A stretch of DNA of 64,000 nt from Chrysomallon squamiferum (Eukaryota; Animalia; Mollusca): the NCBI GenBank assembly GCA_012295275.1, contig CM022668.1, forward strand, positions 13,392,001-13,456,000, given 5' to 3'. Made by a program: the position numbers and the translations under genes. This document shows positions 649 through 54,365 of the stretch, in pieces; positions within the stretch are counted from its first letter, which is position 1; each line of letters begins with the position of its first letter. The notes beneath the pieces were generated by a model that searched no databases, was not told the DNA's origin, and was given only the letters and a program-made list of their open reading frames with translations.

Positions 649-13861
<13,213 letters not shown>

Positions 13862-22675: not shown

Positions 22676-23542
22676 CTAAAAAAAAAAAAAAAAAAAAAAA
22701 AAACTACGGACAAGAGAAAGGTCAATTAGGCACTTGAGAAGTCTGACAGGTCCACAGGTCACTGACAGTTTGCAAAGGTCAAGGACAGCACCTCGAATCA
22801 ATGTTAGCTGTAACCCAGAATTTCTTAAAAGATTTTTCAACTCTGCTTCTTTTGGCCACAGTGAGGAAAACTCAACCAGCGAATCGCCCTGCTTGAAGGG
22901 ATGAAAAGACAATGCTGGCAACCAGAAGATATTTCTCGGATCATCGTAAGTATCACTCGGAATACATGATTCATCATATGACGTCAAGAGGTTTTTTCTC
23001 TTTAGTGCCTGATTAACAATTACTCTGTTTCTGGGAGGATCAAAGAACTTGTGCCTATGGAAACGCTTGCATGAACATGGTGAAACTGCATAAGACTCAT
23101 GAAAAGCCTTTTGTTCTTGTAAATATGTCGACCGAGAAAGATAAAGCTGTGTTGATTGTGTCTTTGAAGTCTGCGATCTTTCAAGCTGTTTCTTACGTAT
23201 TTCTGGATTTCGAATATTGTGTTGAAATTTGGAGGAAGCTAACTGGACGCCATGCGACAAATCTTGCTGTGAATCAATTTCTCGCTTGTCTTGGTTTTGT
23301 CTGTATCTTGCTGCAGAATGTGGCGTGTGTCTGCTTGTGCCCCATGGACTAACTTGAACACTTTCAGTGAAGCTTTTTTGGTGGGTGTGGTCCAGATTCT
23401 GAGTGTCTGAATGCATGGCTTCCACCCAAAGAGACTGAGTAAAATCCTGTCCAGTTCTTTGGCCACCACGCCAATACAAAGCTCTCTTTGGGATACTGTT
23501 TCCTGAACTGATTTGAACCGAATTTGGAACATAGGGAAGCAT
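22676..23542 (-). CDS. Uncharacterised 288-aa ORF, apparently single exon
   Basis: Long non-repetitive ORF, more GC-rich than its flanks, ATG in tcaaaATG context. No recognisable domain; it runs into a poly-T tract, so the C-terminus is uncertain. Confidence 0.5.
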   Translation of the reverse strand: MLPYVPNSVQISSGNSIPKRALYWRGGQRTGQDFTQSLWVEAMHSDTQNLDHTHQKSFTESVQVSPWGTSRHTPHSAARYRQNQDKREIDSQQDLSHGVQLASSKFQHNIRNPEIRKKQLERSQTSKTQSTQLYLSRSTYLQEQKAFHESYAVSPCSCKRFHRHKFFDPPRNRVIVNQALKRKNLLTSYDESCIPSDTYDDPRNIFWLPALSFHPFKQGDSLVEFSSLWPKEAELKNLLRNSGLQLTLIRGAVLDLCKLSVTCGPVRLLKCLIDLSLVRSFFFFFFFF

Positions 23543-24975
23543 TTTGATAATTTTTAAAAGAAATTTACTTAAATAATTAGTTTAAAAAAAATTAATTTCA
23601 ACTCGATTTTAAAAATTAACTTTATTACCATTTTAATTATAATTTTAAATCTTTTTGCTTGTTTTAAAACCATTTTTTTTTTATTTCACATGATTTTGTC
23701 ATATAGTTACCATTATTTATTAAAATGACAGATAATTTATTTTATAACTATTTGGAATTCATAATTTAAAAATAAAATGTTGAATAAGATTTCAGTAGTA
23801 GTCTCCCCTTCAGTGTTATCAATTTAAAATTCAGCATGATTAATATTCTAAATCATAAATGAAATAAATAAATAAGTAAAAATATAAATGTTCTTGTGAT
23901 TAAATAAATATTGTATTGTTATGGTTTACCTGTGGGAATAAAAATATTATGGGTGAATAAGCAAAGGATAAAAAAAATGAGTTCATTAATTTATTAAGTA
24001 TAATAATAAATGTTTCTGGGTGAAAATTAAGTTTGTAAAAGCTGATTTAATTACTCTACTTATAATATAAGAACTACAAAAAGTTCTAATTAAAAAAAAT
24101 ATAAAAACAGATGTCATTATTATTACTACTGCTGTTTTATTAAGTGGCTTATTAATCACCCAGTCTTTTTAGTATATTAACACCAGCAGGGCGAAAAATC
24201 TAAGAATTGTTAAGTCTGTTTGTTCTCTATTGCCAAGGAGCATTAATCTCATTGTAAATTCTATGAATATTCATAAAGCTGTATAGCTTGCTGTCTTTAC
24301 ATGATTAAACACACAAATGTTTTCTCCAAGAACAAAACTTAAATATTTTAAGGGTTCAAGCATAAAAGTGAGTGCTGAGCATGTTTGAAGCAGAGGTGGT
24401 GAGGTTGAAAAGTTAGTGCCATTTGTGATTGTCATAATCATCTATACTGAAAGCAGTATTTAAGATCACCAGTTGTCCTTTCTTGATTTTCTTCTTCAGT
24501 TTATGAGAGTAGGAAAAGTATAGTTTTTAATAATTACTGCAAATGAAGAATTAAATACATTCATTGATCAATAACATAGAAATGTTAATCAATTTTTAGA
24601 ATAAACTTTTGTTACTTTAGAATAAACATTATGTTATGGAAATAATTTTTGGCTTTTTCATAATAAAAACAAAAATGAAAACAACAATTAAATAAATAAG
24701 TCAGAAAATAACCCTAAATAGTTAAAAAAAACTAAAAACTTTCATAATTGTAATCACTTTGAACTAAATGTAAGATCAGTATAAGTATGTCTGGTTTAAA
24801 GACATTCATGTTTTTATTACTATATGGAAAAATTATTTTGAACCTAACTTTATTTAGTATCAGTATTATAATTAATGAATATTCATGTACATTACAACAG
24901 AAATACAAAAACCTTAATTATTATGTATGTACATAAATATTTTAACTAATCTTGTTAAAGCCAATATTTACTGAC

Positions 24976-27050: not shown

Positions 27051-28488
27051 ATTATTTTATTTTCACATACGACTCTTCATTTCTGTAACCCTTTAGTCTT
27101 CATAAGTTAGTAGAAAAGTCATTAACACCAGTTTACAACTTTATTTTTAGGATAATATATATAATATATAATTATCTAGCATGCTGTTTGGATGTTAATA
27201 GCCGTGATCTGTTATCTAATACTACTAAAGTACTAGTAATAGTAGTATACTATATACTAATACTAATACTGTAATACTTACCGGAATCAAATAACGATGT
27301 AAATAACGAATAATATATACATAGCGGCAGTCACCTTGCCAAAATAACTTAGTGACAAATAATTAGTTTTCATTTTTAAATGATAAACACTCATTGTCAT
27401 TGTGTACACAAATTACCAACATACAAACATGGACGTTTTCATTCGTACATCATATATATATAATGATATCTTCTTTTTGCAGAATCTGTCAAATAAAAGT
27501 TTTGTTCTTGACACTGTGTACATACATAGTGGAATACGTAGCCTTTGATAGTAAACCTTTCTGAAGAGATTTGCCAGCAAGTAAACAATTAGAAAACGTT
27601 TACATGTTCTGAAAATATTAGATCACTGTATACATCACTGACTGAAAAACAAACAACAACAAACAATAAAAAAACCCTCCCCCCCAAAAAAAAAATAAAA
27701 TGAAAAAAAAAAAAAAAAATTATTACAATTTTTACCTTTCCTAATATAAAGTGAAGATGTGCCCGAAATGTCCATATACTACTAAAAATATCAGCAATCT
27801 AAGATCTAGTACTCTGGAATAATTTTAAAAACTGATATCAAGTCATTTTGTTTAGACAGGAATACACAAAACAATGTTGTATAATAAACAATACATAAGA
27901 CACTGGAACTGAAGTAGTGCGATAAGTCACCAGCAAGGATTGATCCTGGAACATATTATTCTGTGAAGTAACTGTACCCTATAGCATGATAATCCCTTTT
28001 TTATTTTTTTTTTAAAAAAAATTTATAATGAAATTGTCTGTTTAACAAGCCAAAGAGATCTGTACATATGGAAATCACATTATACCCTCCTGTTGTAAAC
28101 CAGCCATGGGGCACTGCCTGAAGTGATAGATAATCCAGTGTGGGTGTGGCAGTTAGGACTGAATCCAGAATATATTGCTCCTTAAATCCTAAATAATCTG
28201 TCAACCATAGGCTTTATAATTATATATTGAATAACAACAACAACAAGTAAATAAATAACTAAATAAAAACATTTTGGCTTTATGCTTGCCAGCTGAGTCA
28301 CTAATTATGACTCAGTATCAAAACTAGGAATTAAACCATAATAAGATGTGACTTGTAGTCCATTAATCCTTGAAGAATCCTCCATCTCTTAACAAGTAAC
28401 AACTACATAATGTTACATTTTCTGCAGATTAACTATGTGAGAAAGAACGACACCGATGCATGTAGGAGCCTAGGAGTAGGAGCCAGAT

Positions 28489-41366
<12,878 letters not shown>

Positions 41367-45223: not shown

Positions 45224-46278
45224 ATGTAAAAACGCACAATTTCGAATTGCTCATCTTTTAAGAAATATTAATTGTTTTATTTTAATATTATTTTGTGTTG
45301 CTTTCTTTCTTCTTCTGTTTCATCATCACCTTCGTATTATTATTGTTATTGCTGTTGTTATTGTTTAATGATACAATTAAAAACACTTTTTTTTAAAGTT
45401 TAATGATTTTTTCCCGCCGTACAGTTTGTTTAATATGAAATAATTATTAGGTATTCTGATTTCAGAACAAATCCGCTAAATCTTTACATTTACATAAAGG
45501 CTGGTTTATGTGTGTGTATTTGTTGGTGGCTGGGTTTGTTTTTGTATGTGTATGTGTTTGTATTAATAAGTTTAGACAAAGAAAACATTCTATGGGCTAT
45601 TCCTACTTATTGGCAGCAGCATACTATATTTTGTGTCTACCCTCCCACAGAGGGAAAAATATCGGTGACTCTGCTCGGGTTGGAATGGGAAATATATATA
45701 ATTCTGTAACTACACCTGCGACTGCACTCTTTTACTACTGCTTATTTTACTTCTACTCTCCCTTCTAATACTACTGCCATAAATAAATAAATAAATAAAT
45801 AAAATAAAATAAATGAAGAAATGAAATGAAATAAATTTCTTTCTGAATAATTTGAATGAACAACAACAACAACAACAACAACAACAAAATAAACAATAAA
45901 AAATTTAAAAAATATATATATTAAAAAAAAAAAATATAAAAAAATATAAAAAATTCTTCCACCATTCAAAACGAAACATTCATTCTCTCATTCAGTGCTT
46001 TAAGAAAATGTTCTTCCAAATCATGTCGTATGTGTCGAACCTTTACGTGGCAAACATTTTCTGTGAGCCGCACGTGCTGGTAACTTTCCTAGCAGACGAG
46101 TATGTTGAGACAGAAAATGATCCGATGTTAATTAAAAGACTAAATAACAGCAGACGCAATCTCTGCGATTGCTGTACATTTTAAATCTTTCATTTCGACC
46201 GTTGGTTTATTTAACGGTGATTTGTTTGCGACTGTTTCCATTTGATTTGAAATCCTATTCTACTTTCACTAACCTGAA

Positions 46279-46913
46279 ATGGAAAGCAGTTCCATTGCTG
46301 AATCACGTACAAAAGCGATGATAAATCTGAGATTTGTTCAAGGAAAATACGAAGAAGTATTTAAATTGTTAACGGTAAGGATATTTTTATTTTATTTCCA
46401 CGTAACCAAAAACTGAACAATCGAATATATAATAAGAATATATTTATTTTATTTCATTTATATAGGGTACCTTTTTCATTTGATTTAAAAAAAAAAAAAA
46501 AAGATTTTGACTACATAATATATATATTTTGTTAGTCAGACTTTATTGTTTTAGTTCATTGTATTAAAATGTTGTACATTGTTATATAAATCTTTATAAA
46601 GTTTTACAGATTATTAATTTGTATCTAAATATTAAACTTTGTATTACATTTGTTAAAAAGTTTGTAAAAGAATCGATCTTAATGTTAAATAATGTTATAT
46701 TTTGTTATTCAAGTGTTAAACTATTTAAATTACTTTTTCGCGCCTACTAAAATAGTCATTTTGTATTAAAGTGTTATACTTAGCATTTTAAATGTTGCAT
46801 TATTAAAGACTGTTTTTATTTATTTATTTATTTATTTATTTATTATTTTTTTTATATATAATATCGTTATTAATTTTAATTTTTTTTTTTTTTTTTGAAT
46901 ATTCATATCATTC

Positions 46914-46957
<44 letters not shown>

Positions 46958-49442
46958 TAATAATTTTGTATTATTGAAGGAAAACACATTTTCGGATAAA
47001 ACTGGACTTCTTGATCTGTGGGATGACGCACATTACAAGGCGTATGAAAATAAATGGGGACGGAAACTAACAGCTCTTATGCGATTTAGAATCCGCAAAA
47101 GGTAATAAATTAATTGTAAAAAAGACATTAGATGACAAATGTATAAGGTGTTCATTTAGCTGAAATTTTGTATAATGAATTGACGAAGCCAATAAACTAT
47201 TAGGAATTACTGTTAATTATTAAATTGCGTGCATTACTATTATTATTTTTTTTTGTATGTGTATACATTTGCGCGCGTCTGCGAAAAAGAGGGAGACAGA
47301 TGTGTGGATAGAGACAGAAAGAGACAGAAAAATGATGATTCAGAATAATTTTAATATCTTAAGCCAAGTGAAAAATTAATTGTCTTCACATATAAGTGAA
47401 TATGATTATACTTGGTGATGAAGGGTCATACGTTGAAAATGATCTAGAGTATTTTTATCGGCAAACTTTTAGATTAAAAATAACTTAATTATCGATACGT
47501 TTCTAGGTTCCTGTATTTATCTAACACGTGACCGGCGTTTATAATTCAAAACAACAATGTATTGTCTTTAAAACATATGCATATTTCTAACTATATATAT
47601 ATATATATTGAGTGGAAAATACCACAATTAAAATACCAACATCAATATTTTATTAAATAATTTATTTGGACTATCCACCGACTTCAAAATATTTGTCAAA
47701 AGGTATTGAGAAAAATATTTTGTTACATAATTTCGTCCAGATATCCAGCACCTCCAAATAATTCTCCAAAAAAAGAAGAAATTAATTAACAAACAATTAA
47801 ACAAATAAATAATAAAATTCAAAAAAAAAAAAGAGAGGAAAATGCGTATGCAGTAATGAAGGAAAAAAAAAAAAAAATACAAATTTTGTAAATAATTTCG
47901 TCCAGATATCCGCCACCTCCGAACGTCTGTCCAAACGGAGTGAGGCCGTCCGCGCGCCTCGGCGAACCAGCGTGTCGTCTGCTCAAGTCGTGGTTCCTGG
48001 AGCACCAGCATCACCCCTACCCTTCGAAGGACGAGAAGGAGAAGCTGTCGACAGTGACGGGCCTCTCCCTGGAGCAGATAAAAACGTGGTTCGCCAACGC
48101 GAGGAGAAGAACGAAGCTGAAAATGACGAGCAGCAGCATCATCAGGAAGAACGAGAAATGGTGAGTACTGAAATTTTTAAGGGATTGTATTTAGGGATTA
48201 TTTTTCTGAATTTTTTTTAAATCAAGAGATGGTTTCCCTTCTAAAAAAAAAAAAAAAAAAGACAGATGTCCCGCGTAAAGCAGACATGTCATTTGATAGA
48301 CAAAAATTCTTTGTTGGGGTCGTGTAAATGTACATCCTGTACACCCCTTGTTCAATAGTGGTACTGCTCCAATCTGTTCAGCAAGCAAGTGAAACATCAG
48401 AGTTGATCAGTTAGCTGACTGATTTATTTCATCACACTATTGTTATATATGGCACCTGTTTAAAGTGTTTTCTTATAATCTATACAAGCAACAGCGAGAG
48501 CCTAACTGCAATCTGGTAAATCCAGTTAACACATCTTTATAAATAAATCCACAAATGAATCAATATAAATAAAACTAACTTCAAAAAATTTTGTTCTGTG
48601 TTTAGTTGTATCATACTTGGGTTTCGTTGCCAGGTAACGACCAGTTTCCACACATGTCATTGCAGCTGTGGTTGCTAAAGACCTCGTTGATGCCATCAGG
48701 TCCTCTGTCCAGCTCTCCGTAGGCACGTTCAACTGAGTGAACTGTCGGCCCGGAAATTACAATTTCTGTTAAGTCGGGTGAAATAACACCTTGAAGACCA
48801 CACACAACGCATTCACCTCCACTCGCGTGATAAGTAAAATGTACGAAAGCAGCCAGAACATTGTCATCAGTGTCGTTAACGACTTCGCCATTTCGACTGA
48901 CAAAAGCTTTAAAATGCTTGTCGATTTTGGCTTCGAACATGACCAAGTCTCCTTCGCTGAGAGAACGATGCCGCCGTTTCACAGCGTGCAGCGATGCAAC
49001 GTCGCACACTTTAGCGAAGAAGGGAAGAAGAACGGTAACTCTCGTCTTCGTGAAACGTTTTTCGTTAAACTGCTTGGCGTGTTGCTGAGCGACTTTGCAC
49101 CTGTTTATTTCAGCGTCCCTTTCGCCGTCTGTCCATTTCCCAGAGCGCTTCACTTTGACGCAGACTTTCTCTGCGTTGAGAGGGCCATCGCCTTGTGCAA
49201 TTCCCACGTACACCTTCTTCCTTGTGCCCTTTCTCCATGAGGAGTCCTCAAAATGCACGCTGTACGCAGCACCATCGTTGTCTGTACTTCTGTAAGTACT
49301 GTTGCACAGGAGACTCATTGCGGTTTCTAAAATGAATCGTTAATACAGTCCCATTGTAACAAACGTTTTCTGTGTTTTTTGTCTCTCTCTGTCTCTGTCT
49401 CTCTCTCTCTCTGTGTCTGTCTCTGTCAGTCTCAGTTTCTCT

Positions 49443-49513
<71 letters not shown>

Positions 49514-51184
49514 TCTGTCTCTCTCACTCTCTCTGTCTCTCTCTGTCTGCCTCTTCAGCATCACTTATATATAGATATATCAGTTGTAATACACTAATTT
49601 AACTATTGACAGGTAAAATATTGCCATTTACTTACATCATCTATTCAAAAAAGATATAAGGTACAATTAACACGAAACGCTACTTTAACATTTTACTTCT
49701 AATAAACGAAATTTAAACAAATTAAATTAAATTAAATTTGAAAAAAATAATAATAATAATAAAAATAAAATGAAAGTAAAAAATGAAGCAAAGTGAAAGA
49801 CAAGATCTTACCTCACACAGAAAAACACTATGAAAGGATTCTGGGTATTGCAGTTTTCAAATGAGTATGTTCTATAAATACATTTCACAAGAAAGATGAC
49901 GTCAACTTGTAGTGGAATCCCTTGATATATATATATACACTATTACACTTCATTGGCAACAATGATACAATAGGCTAATTCTTTTTCAACAGATATCTAA
50001 CACATTCGTATGCTGGGCAGTGAGTTTCCTGTCTAATACTACCTACTGGAATACATTAAAAAATAACTGGGTTAATCTATTCTGTAAATGAATTTTCAAA
50101 GAAATGTGAGTCAACTAATAGGGGAATCCCCTGATGCATATATACACTGGGAAGATTACCCAGCAGGCCACTTCTATGCATAAAGTGTCAACTGTATTGT
50201 AGCATGCTTACAGCATCATTTATAATAAATAAATTCAGAAAAATAATATCTGAATTAAAGCCTGTATTAAGCACCTTAAATCGAAACATTATGACATAAA
50301 TAATTTTAAAAAAAAATAAAGATAATTACACACACACAAAAAAACAACTTTATTTCATACAAACAACAGTGAGAGTCTAATTGCAATCTGGTAAATGCAA
50401 TTAATAAATCTGTAAACAAATTCATAAATAAATCTAATTTTATATGATTTGTTTTTCTGTATTTAGTTGCACTGGACTATTCCATTATTTATGACATCTA
50501 TTATTCAAGGTAAACTGCAGGTCGTTATAAATGCGCTCAACCGTGACGTGTTTGATAGCATCTGAATGTATGGGATGTTGGCTCTTTTGGGAGGTATATA
50601 CCTCAGCGATATATCACGGTTGTAACTAGACTCTTTTTGAAACAAGGGAAATACCTGTTTTTTTGTCTTATGTTTCTTAAGTCAGTTATGTTTTTCATTG
50701 CAACAGTGGTAACCATAGACATAAATGAATTCAAAAATGTTGGTGTCTTGTTTGTAAGGTGTTGGGGTGAGTCTTCTAGTGTTACCTGTACCTAAAACAG
50801 ATTGGGGTGATGTAGATTCGAGAGCTTACGAATTAAAGTGTTAAAATGAATTATCACCTGATTGTAGGCTGTAGAATCAAAACAATAATCTAGTATTGGA
50901 AAACTGTTTTTGAAGTACTTTACTCTTAAAAAAAAAATAAAAATAAAAAAAATAAACCTAAAAAAAAAAATATATATATTTTAATAATAACAAAATAAAA
51001 TAAAAAAACTAACAGTTAAAACAAAAAAAAGAACATTTTACTTATTCTTGAAAAATTATCAACACGGAGAATAACAACAAACTAGAAACGAATTCCTTGC
51101 ATCAAAAAAATAAAAAAATGAAATAAATAAATAAATAAATAAATAAATAGAAAAATAAAATTAATAACAATAATAATAATAATC

Positions 51185-51232
<48 letters not shown>

Positions 51233-52564
51233 TAAAAAAAATGAAAGACAAAAAATTATTTAAAAATTCTATTTCTGTTTTTACTGCAGCAAAGAAAAAG
51301 CGAACGTAGGGAAAATAAAAATAAAAAAGGAGAACGAAACCAACACGCAATGGGCCAACTACACAGACATTTCAGATGATGGAAGAGAGACAGCACCACT
51401 GGAAACAACTTTGGTGGAGCCCAGAATTGAACCTGCACCCCTGGACATGCGGTGTCCTTCGAAAATCACTGAAGTGGAACGAAAGACGGCTTTGGCAAAC
51501 ATGAGGAAAAATTTGCAAAATTCACAACAGTATCAGGAAAGGTTGGTTGTGATACCTGATTGTCAGTGTTAATAATAGATGAATTGATGTGCAGATATGC
51601 TTATAGGTGAATGTTTGTATTAAATAGCAGATATTAATGGTTTATGAAGTATTTGGAAAATGTATTTTTTGTTGTGTCTTTTGTGCTTTCTTTTTAATGT
51701 TAGACATACACACACACACACCCACACATGCATGCACAAATTCACATATATGTAAACACACAAACAATTAAAAAAGATATTCAGCATTTCCAGATTACAT
51801 GTTGACAATCACAAATAACAACAACAACAACAACAACAACAAAAATAGAAATAATAAATAAATAAATAAATAAAAAAATAAATAAAATAAAATAAAAATA
51901 AAATAAAAAATACTTTTTATGTTTATGGAAAATGGGCTACAAAAAAAAAAAAAAACATGCATTTGTACCTAGCACAGTTGAAACATTTTTCACTCACCTT
52001 ACGTAGTATTTATCTATTTCAGCTTTTCACCACAGCAAACACACTACTACAGCAGCCACTATTTGTCCAGTTTAGTAAACTTTGTGAATAACAGCAACAG
52101 CAGCAGCAGCAGCAGCAATACACTGACAGCCACAAATTTTTCCACAGGGAATCATCATTTGCCATATTCTCCATCGTCCAGTAACCCATCACATTTCTTG
52201 AGATCATCCTACAATTGGCACAATCATTCGGACCACAAGATCTGGTTGCCGAGGCAACAACATCCTGTTTCATCATCACATTCTGCTGACAGTTGGCCAG
52301 TGACAGCTGTTGATATGCAGAGAAGTGGTGAGTGTGTGATTCAGGTTGTGAATAAATAGTGTGTTCCATTTTAGAGCTGGTTAAATGCTGGATGTTATTT
52401 TGTTTCTTGTTGAACTTAAGAGACAGAAAAGTACACCTGTAGAGTATTGAGGTGCTTCAGGTGTTTCTGTTTTTTACTTGTTTTGTTTGTTTGTTTTTTT
52501 TTTTTTTTTTTTTTTATATTATTCTTGTGTGTTTTGCTTTGTATTATTTGTTTCATTTATGTAT

Positions 52565-52632
<68 letters not shown>

Positions 52633-53114
52633 TTAATTTATTTATTTATTATTAATTTATTTCTTTACTTGTTTGTTTTGCTTTGATTTATTATTATTAT
52701 TATTTATTGTTTTTTAGAAATTATTATTTTTTTAAATATTTTTTGTCCTTTTTTTGGCATGAAGCTATTTTTGTTTTAACTAACACAGTAAGTAATTCAT
52801 TTTCTGAAATCATGGATAATTTTTCAAGTTCTTTTATGCTAAATGTTGACATACAGGATTTATATTAACAAGGGAGATAACCTCTGAATTGAAATGAATC
52901 AGGATAAGACAAAAATGTATTTTTACATTTTCGTAAAATTATTAAATCTGCACCTAAGTATTATATAACCAAAAAAACACACAACAAAACCCCATCAACA
53001 ACAAAAAAAAAATTAGTAAAGATGTTTGAAGTATTTATTTCTTAGATGAAATTAATATATCAAGTAACAAAATGAAAACTTTACTCTTTTCACAAGCTGC
53101 AAGTATATGAGGCC

Positions 53115-53184
<70 letters not shown>

Positions 53185-54365
53185 CAAGGAAACAAGCCTT
53201 GGAGATAAAAATAAATAATACATATATATATATATATTTTTTTTTAAATTGACTTTCAACAAATATAAACAGATACATCAAATAAACGGAATATTTTATC
53301 AACAGGTGTGTAATATATTTCAGTATTCTATTTCAGAAAGTACACCACCAGTTACATCACCATCATCAATCACCTGTCCGACATCAGACGGTGGACGTCT
53401 GCCACCTCTGTCTCCTCAGATATTCGGCTGGACTCCAGGCTCCAGGGCAGTCTCCACCCCACCACCCAGCCAGTTCATATATTACAACAATCAACCACTG
53501 GTCAGTTCCAGACCACTGTCCACTTCAAGTCCACGACAAGTGCCTAACTACAGTACCTTTAATCTGAGACCGTGTCTACCGGTGAATCAGATATGGCTTC
53601 AGAATTTGTCTCAGTTTCCACATCATTATCCTCTTCCTTATGGAATGGTGACACCAGTCAGGCAGCCATGTTTGGATGCTGCAGTGGTTGATGTTGCACC
53701 AGTAACTTCTGCAGGCTTCTCTGGATACTCTTCTTCGTATGTGATGATGTCAAACAGAGGAGGTGCAGTATTTTATATTGCTGATTGGTGGTTTTGTAAC
53801 ATAATATATATTTTTTTATATATTTCCAGCTAATGACAAGAATTATTTTGGTATTACTTCTGTGGTGAAATACATATTTATACACATCCAAAAATTGTAC
53901 ATCATTTAAATATTCCTTTAGTTGACTTATAAAGTATACTGTTTGCTACTTTTTCTATGGTTTAAATACACTTCCAAATAAGGAAACAAATTATTGTAGT
54001 AGAAATATTTTCCCTGTAATTCCAGTACAAATTATAATAGTAGTAATCTTTTCCCTGTAGTTCCAGTACAAATTATTATAGTAGTAATCTTTTTCCTGTA
54101 GTTCCAGTACAAATTATTACAGTAGTAATCTTTTTCCTGTAGTTTCAGTCTCTCATTTGTTCATCTTCAAATTTCTTTAACTTATGCTGCAGCTTGTAAT
54201 GGTAAATCGGTTGTTTCTACTTCACCTTTGAATGGCTACCAGGGAGATAACTCTAGGTGTTTTGAATCGGGTTGGAGTGTTGTTGCAGATCATCAACATG
54301 ATAACGTCTTTGTTCCTTCAACAGTCAGCAACAGTGTTGAAGAATCAGTTGAGAAAATGAGGTAG
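46279..54365 (+). CDS. Homeobox transcription factor: partial SIX-type domain plus TALE-class homeodomain (ANHX-like / SIX-like), ~550 aa with a long S/P/Q-rich tail
   Basis: Phase-consistent exons 46279-46374 (MESSSIAESRTKAMINLRFVQGKYEEVFKLLT), 46980-47101 (LLDLWDDAHYKAYENKWGRKLTALMRFRIRK), 47906-48160 (YPPPPNVCPNG...LKSWFLEHQHHPYPSKDEKEKLSTVTGLSLEQIKTWFANARRR), 51290-51541, 52023-52327, 53337-53736, 54143-54365. The first six exons are well supported; the 3' end is less certain. Confidence 0.85.
48611..49318 (-). CDS. Alpha-kinase (eEF2K/MHCK/TRPM7 fold) domain-only protein, probable pseudokinase, nested in the homeobox gene intron
   Basis: 235 aa with alpha-kinase landmarks VCVKVK, AQQHAKQFN, MFEAKIDKHF, LAAFVHFTYHASGG, VVCGLQGV, ISGPTVHS, YGELDRGPDGI and zinc ligands HSCNDMC. 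CDS has no intron; putative 5'UTR intron 49327-49811 (GAG|gtaaga ... ttttag|AAACCGCAATG); minus-strand AATAAA at 48423-48428. Confidence 0.9.
   Translation of the reverse strand: MSLLCNSTYRSTDNDGAAYSVHFEDSSWRKGTRKKVYVGIAQGDGPLNAEKVCVKVKRSGKWTDGERDAEINRCKVAQQHAKQFNEKRFTKTRVTVLLPFFAKVCDVASLHAVKRRHRSLSEGDLVMFEAKIDKHFKAFVSRNGEVVNDTDDNVLAAFVHFTYHASGGECVVCGLQGVISPDLTEIVISGPTVHSVERAYGELDRGPDGINEVFSNHSCNDMCGNWSLPGNETQV
49870..50165 (-). promoter_or_regulatory. Putative promoter of the nested alpha-kinase gene with a duplicated STAT / AP-1-CRE / NF-kB motif module
   Basis: TATA-like TATTTATA at ~49873-49880 (minus strand). Module 1: TTCACAAGAA 49884-49893, TGACGTCA 49897-49904, GTGGAATCCC 49912-49921. 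Module 2: TTCAAAGAA 50095-50103, TGAGTCA 50107-50113, GGGGAATCCCC 50121-50131. Confidence 0.55.
53995..54150. repeat. ~41-bp tandem repeat ending at a candidate acceptor
   Basis: gtagtaatctttttcctgtagttccagtacaaattatta, 3-4 copies. Confidence 0.85.

What the first reader, a model, noticed from the sequence alone, without database searches (positions are those of the whole stretch)
49870..50165. Duplicated STAT + AP-1/CRE + NF-kB module upstream of the nested pseudokinase
Seen: two homologous ~55-bp modules about 210 bp apart (ttcacaagaaagatgacgtcaacttgtagtggaatcccttgatatat and ttcaaagaaatgtgagtcaactaataggggaatcccctgatgcat), directly upstream of a TATA-like box and the putative noncoding first exon. 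The copies diverge between motifs, yet each still shows a GAS-like site, a bZIP site (CRE in one, AP-1 in the other) and a kB site (one is GGGGAATCCCC). Inference: an infection- or stress-inducible dead alpha-kinase, possibly an undescribed feedback component of invertebrate innate immunity. Vertebrate ALPK1 is a known alpha-kinase in NF-kB signalling, but no direct link is shown here.
Basis: partly seen in the sequence, partly recalled or inferred. Interest (0 to 1): 0.8.

Follow-up and report, generated by a model that had tools for sequence, protein, structure and literature searches.

The report
Immune-type promoter on snail dead kinase
A snail gene hidden inside another gene's intron encodes a kinase-shaped protein lacking both catalytic aspartates, and just upstream lies a duplicated stretch of DNA with predicted NF-kB, AP-1 and STAT sites, so it is likely switched on by infection or stress; its relatives form a mollusc family whose tails carry motifs predicted to recruit protein-sorting machinery.

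Summary
The duplication is real: 49870-49938 and 50080-50147 are 77% identical (E 2.7e-7). The repeat is 69 bp and includes the TATA region. The distal copy has a consensus GAS, AP-1 and kB site, the only such triad in 64 kb. The proximal copy is weaker: a perfect CRE, but an N4 GAS and a one-mismatch kB site. Extra conservation of the motifs is marginal (p about 0.05). On the minus strand the geometry fits a promoter: TATA-like box, a CA 31 nt on, a 38-nt exon, a strong donor, then a 235-aa alpha-kinase ORF inside an intron of a SIX-type homeobox gene. The protein lacks both catalytic aspartates. It belongs to a mollusc clade that is mostly dead, and 49 of 60 dead relatives with tails carry PSAP or PPxY motifs (5 of 46 intact ones); this copy has no tail. 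Transcription, induction and conservation of the promoter could not be shown, and nothing links it to ALPK1 or to feedback. Verdict: a likely inducible promoter of an ordinary kind on an apparently undescribed pseudokinase family. The family is the more interesting part.

The parts
50080..50147 (.). Distal copy of the 69-bp repeat: degenerate TATA region, GAS N3 (50095-50103, overlapping a TCF word), AP-1 (50107-50113), palindromic kB site (50121-50131), short TA run
49870..49938 (.). Proximal copy: TATA (49873-49880), GAS N4 (49884-49893), CRE (49897-49904), one-mismatch kB site (49912-49921), TA run
49873..49880 (-). TATA-like box, TATTTATA on the minus strand (TATAAATA on the plus strand); first T 31 nt before the predicted start
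   Evidence: sequence; function inferred
49812..49849 (-). Predicted 38-nt noncoding first exon, from a CA at 49850/49849 to the donor GAG|GTAAGA; no ATG in the predicted leader
   Evidence: only 1 of 469 TATA-like words in the window has such a donor 40-120 nt downstream; not seen in RNA
49327..49811 (-). Predicted 485-nt 5' UTR intron holding a GA microsatellite
   Evidence: sequence; inferred
48611..49318 (-). Single-exon ORF, 235 aa, alpha-kinase fold. K55, E129, Q176 and the Zn ligands H160/H217/C219/C223 are kept; both catalytic Asp positions are Gly (G174, G190); no C-terminal tail
48482..48610 (-). Start of the kinase 3' UTR; second copy of the element at 50357-50470. AATAAA near 48428
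50357..50470 (.). Copy of the kinase's proximal 3' UTR sequence upstream of the promoter (81% over 80 bp): remnant of a tandem copy or a dispersed repeat
   Evidence: high contig depth in run X1 points to a repeat
48161..51289 (+). Host intron, after the homeobox exon (47906-48160) of a SIX1_SD + homeobox gene; holds the whole kinase gene on the opposite strand
   Evidence: splice sites read and in frame

Best explanation
The duplicated 69-bp stretch is likely the promoter of the nested snail alpha-pseudokinase gene, and its NF-kB, AP-1/CRE and STAT-like sites likely switch the gene on after infection or cell stress. Shown: the duplication, the motifs, the nested position, the loss of both catalytic aspartates and the lack of a tail. 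Inferred: a short local duplication doubled the module; the proximal copy kept the TATA-like box and acts as core promoter, while the distal copy, which has the better kB, AP-1 and GAS sites, acts as upstream enhancer; Rel and Jun/Fos/ATF proteins bind them; transcription starts near 49849 on the minus strand; a 38-nt leader splices to one coding exon. The product is predicted to fold, bind zinc and perhaps ATP, but not to transfer phosphate. It would act by binding partners. Since most relatives carry PSAP/PPxY tails that would recruit TSG101 and NEDD4-type ligases, the tail-less copy would most simply hold the same partners without sending them to sorting or degradation; this last step is a guess (about 0.2 by itself).
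For: Duplication beyond chance. Only GAS+bZIP+kB triad in 64 kb, 1 of 5000 shuffles. Order kB, bZIP, GAS, TATA, CA at 31 nt, strong donor, acceptor 8 nt before the ATG, no upstream ATG; 1 of 469 TATA-like words has such a donor. Core at 77% identity while its flanks do not align (p 0.30-0.78), and motif columns better kept than others (p 0.048). Intact ORF, Pfam PF02816 at 96 bits (cut-off 21.3), pLDDT 93. The contig of run X1 over the ORF differs at 24 letters and has an in-frame 18-nt insertion before the stop. G174 and G190 align to MHCK-A D756 and D766, whose Ala mutants are deposited as inactive and ATP-bound. A mussel gene annotated VwkA rises under low pH (PMC9283884, passages; family membership not checked).
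Against: No call shows transcription from this start, factor binding or induction. The proximal kB and GAS sites are off consensus. The motif panel was chosen after the fact; 17 clusters of three motifs from a 25-motif panel occur in the window. No listed X1 substitution falls in a motif, but that has probability 0.23-0.36 by chance. Listed differences to paralogues are 4 synonymous and 13 non-synonymous of 17 (0.22 synonymous expected if neutral; 60 rows not shown), so purifying selection on this copy is not shown. Term searches in the supplements of five mollusc immune transcriptome papers found no vwkA or alpha-protein kinase row.
Confidence: 0.5

Rival explanations
1. It is the real promoter, but its main inputs are not immune. 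The CRE/AP-1 and TCF-like words drive developmental, shell-forming or cAMP-linked expression, and the kB palindrome is minor.
For: The mussel gene annotated VwkA is expressed in the larval shell field (PMC9283884, passages). Pearl-oyster AP-1 activates biomineral genes (PMC4585884, search listing and start of abstract). The copy next to the TATA box has a perfect CRE but an imperfect kB site. The distal GAS word overlaps a TCF word.
Against: The distal kB site is a full palindromic consensus, one of 2 strict loci in 64 kb, and GGAATCCC is kept in both copies.
Confidence: 0.22
2. The locus is a young, dispersed and tail-truncated duplicate under little constraint. The 69-bp repeat is a fairly recent neutral duplication and the second set of motifs was simply copied.
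For: Near-neutral ratio against paralogues (4 synonymous, 13 non-synonymous of 17 listed). Tail absent, and a repeated element begins right at the stop codon. Motif-over-linker conservation only p about 0.05. A similar short duplication lies at the homeobox exon acceptor (47717-47758 against 47883-47923).
Against: ORF intact with all fold and Zn residues; the X1 indel keeps frame; X1 allele differences are 4 synonymous and 5 non-synonymous of 9 listed (P 0.11). A tail-less member of 238 aa is kept in four Haliotis species. Both indels inside motifs leave a recognisable motif. A near-neutral ratio also fits diversifying selection.
Confidence: 0.2
3. The module is an intronic enhancer or a plus-strand start for the host homeobox gene, not the kinase promoter.
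For: It lies in the host intron. The perfect TATAAATA reads on the plus strand; the minus-strand word has one mismatch to the consensus. The motifs are near-palindromic.
Against: On the plus strand the motifs would lie downstream of the TATA box. On the minus strand the CA, donor, acceptor and ATG line up.
Confidence: 0.08

Closest known systems
Signal-inducible promoters with clustered NF-kB, AP-1/ATF and STAT or IRF sites (vertebrate cytokine genes, Drosophila antimicrobial peptide genes; recalled, no call)
   Same: Clustered consensus sites just upstream of a TATA-like box, with repeated kB-type sites.
   Different: Here only sequence; no binding or induction shown. The whole module, TATA region included, is duplicated. 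The proximal kB and GAS sites are off consensus.
ALPK3, the vertebrate alpha-pseudokinase (PMC11933305, passages)
   Same: Alpha-kinase fold without catalytic activity; presumed to act by binding.
   Different: ALPK3 is a large muscle protein with two Ig domains. This is a bare 235-aa domain, from a multi-copy mollusc clade with PSAP/PPxY tails.
MHCK-A, EhAK1, eEF2K and TRPM7 alpha-kinase domains (PMC2827801, passages)
   Same: Fold (TM-score 0.69-0.75), ATP-site Lys, hinge Glu, Zn finger.
   Different: Both invariant aspartates are Gly; 16-18% identity in the fold alignments.
ALPK1, the ADP-heptose sensor upstream of NF-kB
   Same: Alpha-kinase fold (TM-score 0.55-0.60).
   Different: No N-terminal sensor domain and no catalytic aspartates; predicted to lie downstream of NF-kB, not upstream. 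No evidence of orthology.
Database-annotated mollusc 'alpha-protein kinase vwkA-like' proteins
   Same: Same clade, 30-37% identity; most lack one or both aspartates.
   Different: These are automatic names. The window copy has no tail and sits alone in a homeobox intron, whereas Patella and Haliotis members have neighbouring locus numbers, which suggests tandem clusters.
PSAP + PPxY adaptors such as ARRDC1 and viral late domains (PMC8402826, passages)
   Same: Relatives' tails carry the motifs that bind TSG101 and NEDD4-family ligases in those systems.
   Different: Applies to the relatives only; binding is untested; the window protein has neither motif.

Membership tests
NF-kB/AP-1/STAT-inducible promoter | Consensus sites clustered upstream of a core promoter | tested here: met
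   Distal copy meets all three consensus words; only such triad in 64 kb. Proximal copy meets CRE only; its kB has one mismatch and its GAS is N4.
NF-kB/AP-1/STAT-inducible promoter | Transcription start just downstream of the module | tested here: inconclusive
   Geometry fits; only contigs were available and none of the listed RNA pieces covers the 5' end.
NF-kB/AP-1/STAT-inducible promoter | Factor binding and stimulus-dependent induction | not testable with these tools
   Needs challenge RNA-seq, reporter or binding assays.
NF-kB/AP-1/STAT-inducible promoter | Motifs conserved at orthologous promoters | tested here: inconclusive
   One close allele only; 0 of 11 listed substitutions in motifs, chance 0.23-0.36. 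No homologous flanks could be fetched.
Alpha-kinase family | Alpha-kinase fold and profile | tested here: met
   PF02816 E 3.2e-27; Foldseek E 2.9e-14.
Alpha-kinase family | C-lobe zinc finger (His, His, Cys, Cys) | tested here: met
   H160, H217, C219, C223, each in 143-144 of 145 aligned relatives.
Active alpha-kinases | Invariant Lys and two invariant Asp (TRPM7 K1648, D1767, D1777) | tested here: not met
   K55 kept; both Asp positions are Gly.
ALPK1 | N-terminal heptose-sensing domain plus active kinase (domain role recalled) | tested here: not met
   235 aa, Pfam kinase match over residues 30-222 of 234, no other family.
ALPK3 | Two Ig domains before a pseudokinase domain | tested here: not met
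   No Ig match; ALPK3 layout.
Dictyostelium VwkA | von Willebrand A domain joined to the kinase (recalled) | tested here: not met
   No vWA match in Pfam.
Mollusc dead alpha-kinase clade (defined here) | Groups with relatives lacking the aspartates | tested here: met
   Quick tree: sister to Haliotis asinina P0030 (SH-aLRT 92, under the 95 mark) inside a 28-row group with no intact member.
Mollusc dead alpha-kinase clade (defined here) | C-terminal tail with P(S/T)AP and/or PPxY | tested here: not met
   Stop 12 residues after the last Cys; no such motif in any frame downstream.
Nested antisense gene | Whole gene inside an intron of a gene on the other strand | tested here: met
   Host exons on both sides match Gigantopelta aegis LOC121387672; host splicing itself inferred from homology and frame.

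The most novel reading that the evidence does not exclude
Molluscs have an undescribed, repeatedly expanded family of dead alpha-kinases that work as inducible immune adaptors: the kinase fold grips a target and the PSAP/PPxY tail hands it to TSG101/ESCRT and NEDD4-type ligases. This snail has made a tail-less copy under a doubled NF-kB/AP-1/STAT promoter that competes with the tailed paralogues and so tunes the response.
Probability: 0.2. Interest if true: 0.75.

Novelty: new variant of a known kind. Interest (0 to 1): 0.45.

Why it matters
Few direct NF-kB or STAT target promoters are mapped in molluscs (own knowledge). A compact module with two natural variants side by side is an easy reporter for the site preferences of mollusc Rel, AP-1/CREB and STAT. 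The larger point is the protein family. Databases call these proteins vwkA-like or eEF2K-like kinases, and one mussel paper treats such a gene as an active kinase, yet most members examined lack the catalytic residues and carry sorting motifs. If they are adaptors, they would be a second, separate use of the alpha-kinase fold without catalysis, besides ALPK3, and a new arm of signalling in farmed shellfish. The promoter alone is an ordinary kind of element.

Tried and rejected
No whole genome is held for this window, so paralogue promoters could not be read. Word-based homologue search with the kinase found nothing; the HMMER search did. No RNA holder was listed. Runs X1-X4 are contigs only. 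RNA contigs over the ORF were about 85% identical and share substitutions with paralogue contigs of X1, so they point to a paralogue, weakly, since DNA can be in such libraries. Among the listed pieces only one X1 contig covers the module, and depth is flat there; a lack of cover proves nothing. The one metagenome locus, L001, is a 15-residue chance match in GC-rich DNA. Viral contigs held no relative. Idea that the repeat is a 210-bp tandem duplication including exon 1: flanks do not align above shuffles (p 0.30-0.78); an old long duplication with erased flanks is not excluded. No second kinase copy or remnant in the window. No Rfam match in 47000-52000. Oyster CGI_10025610 ('eEF2K-like') is listed at log2FC 2.56 after poly(I:C), but its RPKM equals the seawater control (285 against 283) and its family was not checked, so it was set aside. 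Paper searches for the family listed no description of it. Supplements of PMC6182001, PMC7772429, PMC7773633 and PMC6353905 gave no hit for the terms used; these genes are often named 'uncharacterized', so this is weak. The supplement of PMC4346834 could not be read and bioRxiv supplements are closed; both may bear on induction. Earlier scan findings held nothing on this locus or family.

Full report
Setting. No whole genome is held. The window is AT-rich animal DNA. The finding lies in an intron (48161-51289) of a plus-strand SIX1_SD + homeobox gene whose homeobox exon is 76% identical to Gigantopelta aegis LOC121387672; four further exons on both sides match the same protein. The animal is therefore likely a snail near Gigantopelta. 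On the minus strand of that intron is a single-exon ORF, 48611-49318, 235 aa.

The observation. The two quoted sequences are there. They belong to a 69-bp repeat, 49870-49938 and 50080-50147, with 53 of 69 columns identical (E 2.7e-7; score 55 against at most 36 in 2000 shuffles). The repeat includes the TATA region and a TA run. Its flanks do not align above chance (four tests, p 0.30-0.78). The distal copy has a GAS N3 word, an AP-1 site and a palindromic kB site. The proximal copy has a perfect CRE, a GAS with N4 spacing 3 nt from the TATA box, and a kB site with one mismatch. In 64 kb there are 2 strict kB loci, 3 CRE, 6 AP-1, 14 GAS N3 and 13 GAS N4 words. The triad occurs once and in 1 of 5000 shuffles of the local 1 kb. 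Against that, a panel of 25 recalled motifs gives 17 three-motif clusters in the window and a panel of 7 immune or stress motifs gives 3, this one included. Motif columns are better kept than the rest, 22 of 24 against 33 of 46, p 0.048, with edges chosen after the fact. One X1 contig spans the module with 16 substitutions; none of the 11 listed is in a motif, which has probability 0.23-0.36.

Promoter anatomy. On the minus strand the order is kB, bZIP, GAS, TATTTATA (49880-49873), a CA at 49850/49849 31 nt from the first T, a 38-nt exon, the donor GAG|GTAAGA at 49811, a 485-nt intron, an acceptor 8 nt before the ATG, and no ATG in the leader. Only 1 of 469 TATA-like words in the window has such a donor 40-120 nt downstream. 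This is good circumstantial support for a promoter. No RNA confirms it.

The protein. It matches PF02816 at 96 bits, folds with pLDDT 93 and superposes on EhAK1, MHCK-A, eEF2K, TRPM7 and, last, ALPK1. The review PMC2827801 (passages) names one invariant Lys and two invariant Asp. K55 is kept; the Asp positions are G174 and G190, aligned to MHCK-A D756 and D766, whose Ala mutants are deposited as inactive, ATP-bound structures. The Zn ligands are intact. So it is a predicted pseudokinase. ALPK3 is a known alpha-pseudokinase (PMC11933305, passages), so the idea is not new in kind.

The family. The HMMER search gave 1580 hits at E up to 0.001; the best 150 were listed, at most 37% identical over the full domain. 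I dropped 5 longer than 700 aa and aligned 145: 72 lack both Asp, 58 keep both, 15 keep one. Among those with a tail of 30 aa or more, P(S/T)AP or PPxY occurs in 49 of 60, 5 of 46 and 7 of 12. In the dead group P(S/T)AP was seen 35 times against 0.8 in shuffled tails and PPxY 40 against 3.2. These counts are not independent: in a quick tree of 127 rows (those with at least 170 aa of domain) the dead label needs 14 changes, at least 6 forced, and four intact kinases with the motifs lie on the same side as most dead ones. The tail is thus a trait of the clade, and catalysis was probably lost more than once. Of 30 hand-picked clusters looked up, 18 carry an organism name, all molluscs: limpets, abalones, Aplysia, Elysia, Physella, Nucella, Gigantopelta, mussels, scallops, clams. 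Of 18 named proteins checked, 15 lack the first Asp, none of the 16 readable has the second, and 15 carry a tail motif. Neighbouring locus numbers in Patella and Haliotis suggest tandem clusters. PSAP binds TSG101 and PPxY binds NEDD4-family ligases in other systems (PMC8402826, passages); binding here is inferred. The window protein stops 12 residues after its last Cys and has no such motif downstream. A tail-less member is also kept in four Haliotis species.

History of the locus. About 110-130 bp just after the kinase stop recur upstream of the promoter (48482-48610 and 50357-50470; 81% over 80 bp). This is a remnant of a tandem copy or a dispersed repeat; high X1 depth favours a repeat. 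X1 also holds paralogue contigs 84-88% identical. Of 17 listed paralogue differences 4 are synonymous, as expected without selection; of 9 listed allele differences 4 are (P 0.11). Many rows were not shown. This fits relaxed or diversifying selection and does not show constraint.

Expression evidence. None for this copy. A mussel gene annotated VwkA rises under low pH and is expressed in the shell field (PMC9283884, passages); a Mytilus protein of that name is in the family, but I could not check that it is the same gene. A sponge alpha-protein kinase rose on symbiont exposure (PMC11229196, one passage; family unknown). Term searches of supplements in five mollusc immune papers gave no clear row (of PMC7064767 I also read part 1 of file 5).

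Mechanism and odds. Most likely (0.5) this is the kinase promoter and is induced through Rel and AP-1/CREB sites, with STAT the weakest of the three inputs. Rivals: a real but mainly developmental or shell-linked promoter (0.22); a neutral duplication at a weakly constrained copy (0.2); an element of the host gene (0.08). The feedback role and the ALPK1 link have no support. The adaptor-and-decoy model is inference from motifs (0.2).

Novelty. The promoter is a known kind of element. Eight paper searches listed no description of the mollusc dead alpha-kinase clade or of its tail motifs; the library lacks most subscription journals. I rate the whole a new variant of a known kind, interest 0.45.

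Noticed in passing
proteins P0002-P0151 (relatives of window 48614-49318): A mollusc clade of alpha-kinases mostly lacking both catalytic Asp, with PSAP/PPxY tails (49 of 60 dead members with tails). About a quarter of all aligned hits begin Met-Gly, a possible myristoylation signal. Worth its own study.
   Followed up: partly
window 46275-53800 (+): Host gene with SIX1_SD and a TALE-like homeobox, orthologous to an uncharacterized Gigantopelta gene; the layout recalls vertebrate ANHX (recalled, not tested).
   Followed up: partly
window 47717-47758 and 47883-47923: A 42-bp duplicate (88%) of the homeobox exon's splice acceptor and first codons lies 166 bp upstream of the real one; possible decoy or alternative acceptor.
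   Followed up: no
window 48482-48610 and 50357-50470: Repeat that starts right at the kinase stop codon and recurs upstream of the promoter; it may have truncated the tail or mark a lost tandem copy.
   Followed up: partly
window 50440-50750: Multi-copy element with high X1 depth; contigs of three RNA runs skip 50643-50708.
   Followed up: no
window about 28400-40700 (+): Exons matching KRIT1 domains (NUDIX_5, FERM_M).
   Followed up: no
window about 2070-12100 (-): Exons of an ankyrin-repeat gene; ORF 22676-23581 (-) has a weak LicD match (E 0.014).
   Followed up: no
window 49636-49646 (-): A second donor-like GTAAGT just after an AG inside the predicted 5' UTR intron; possible alternative leader or micro-exon.
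   Followed up: no
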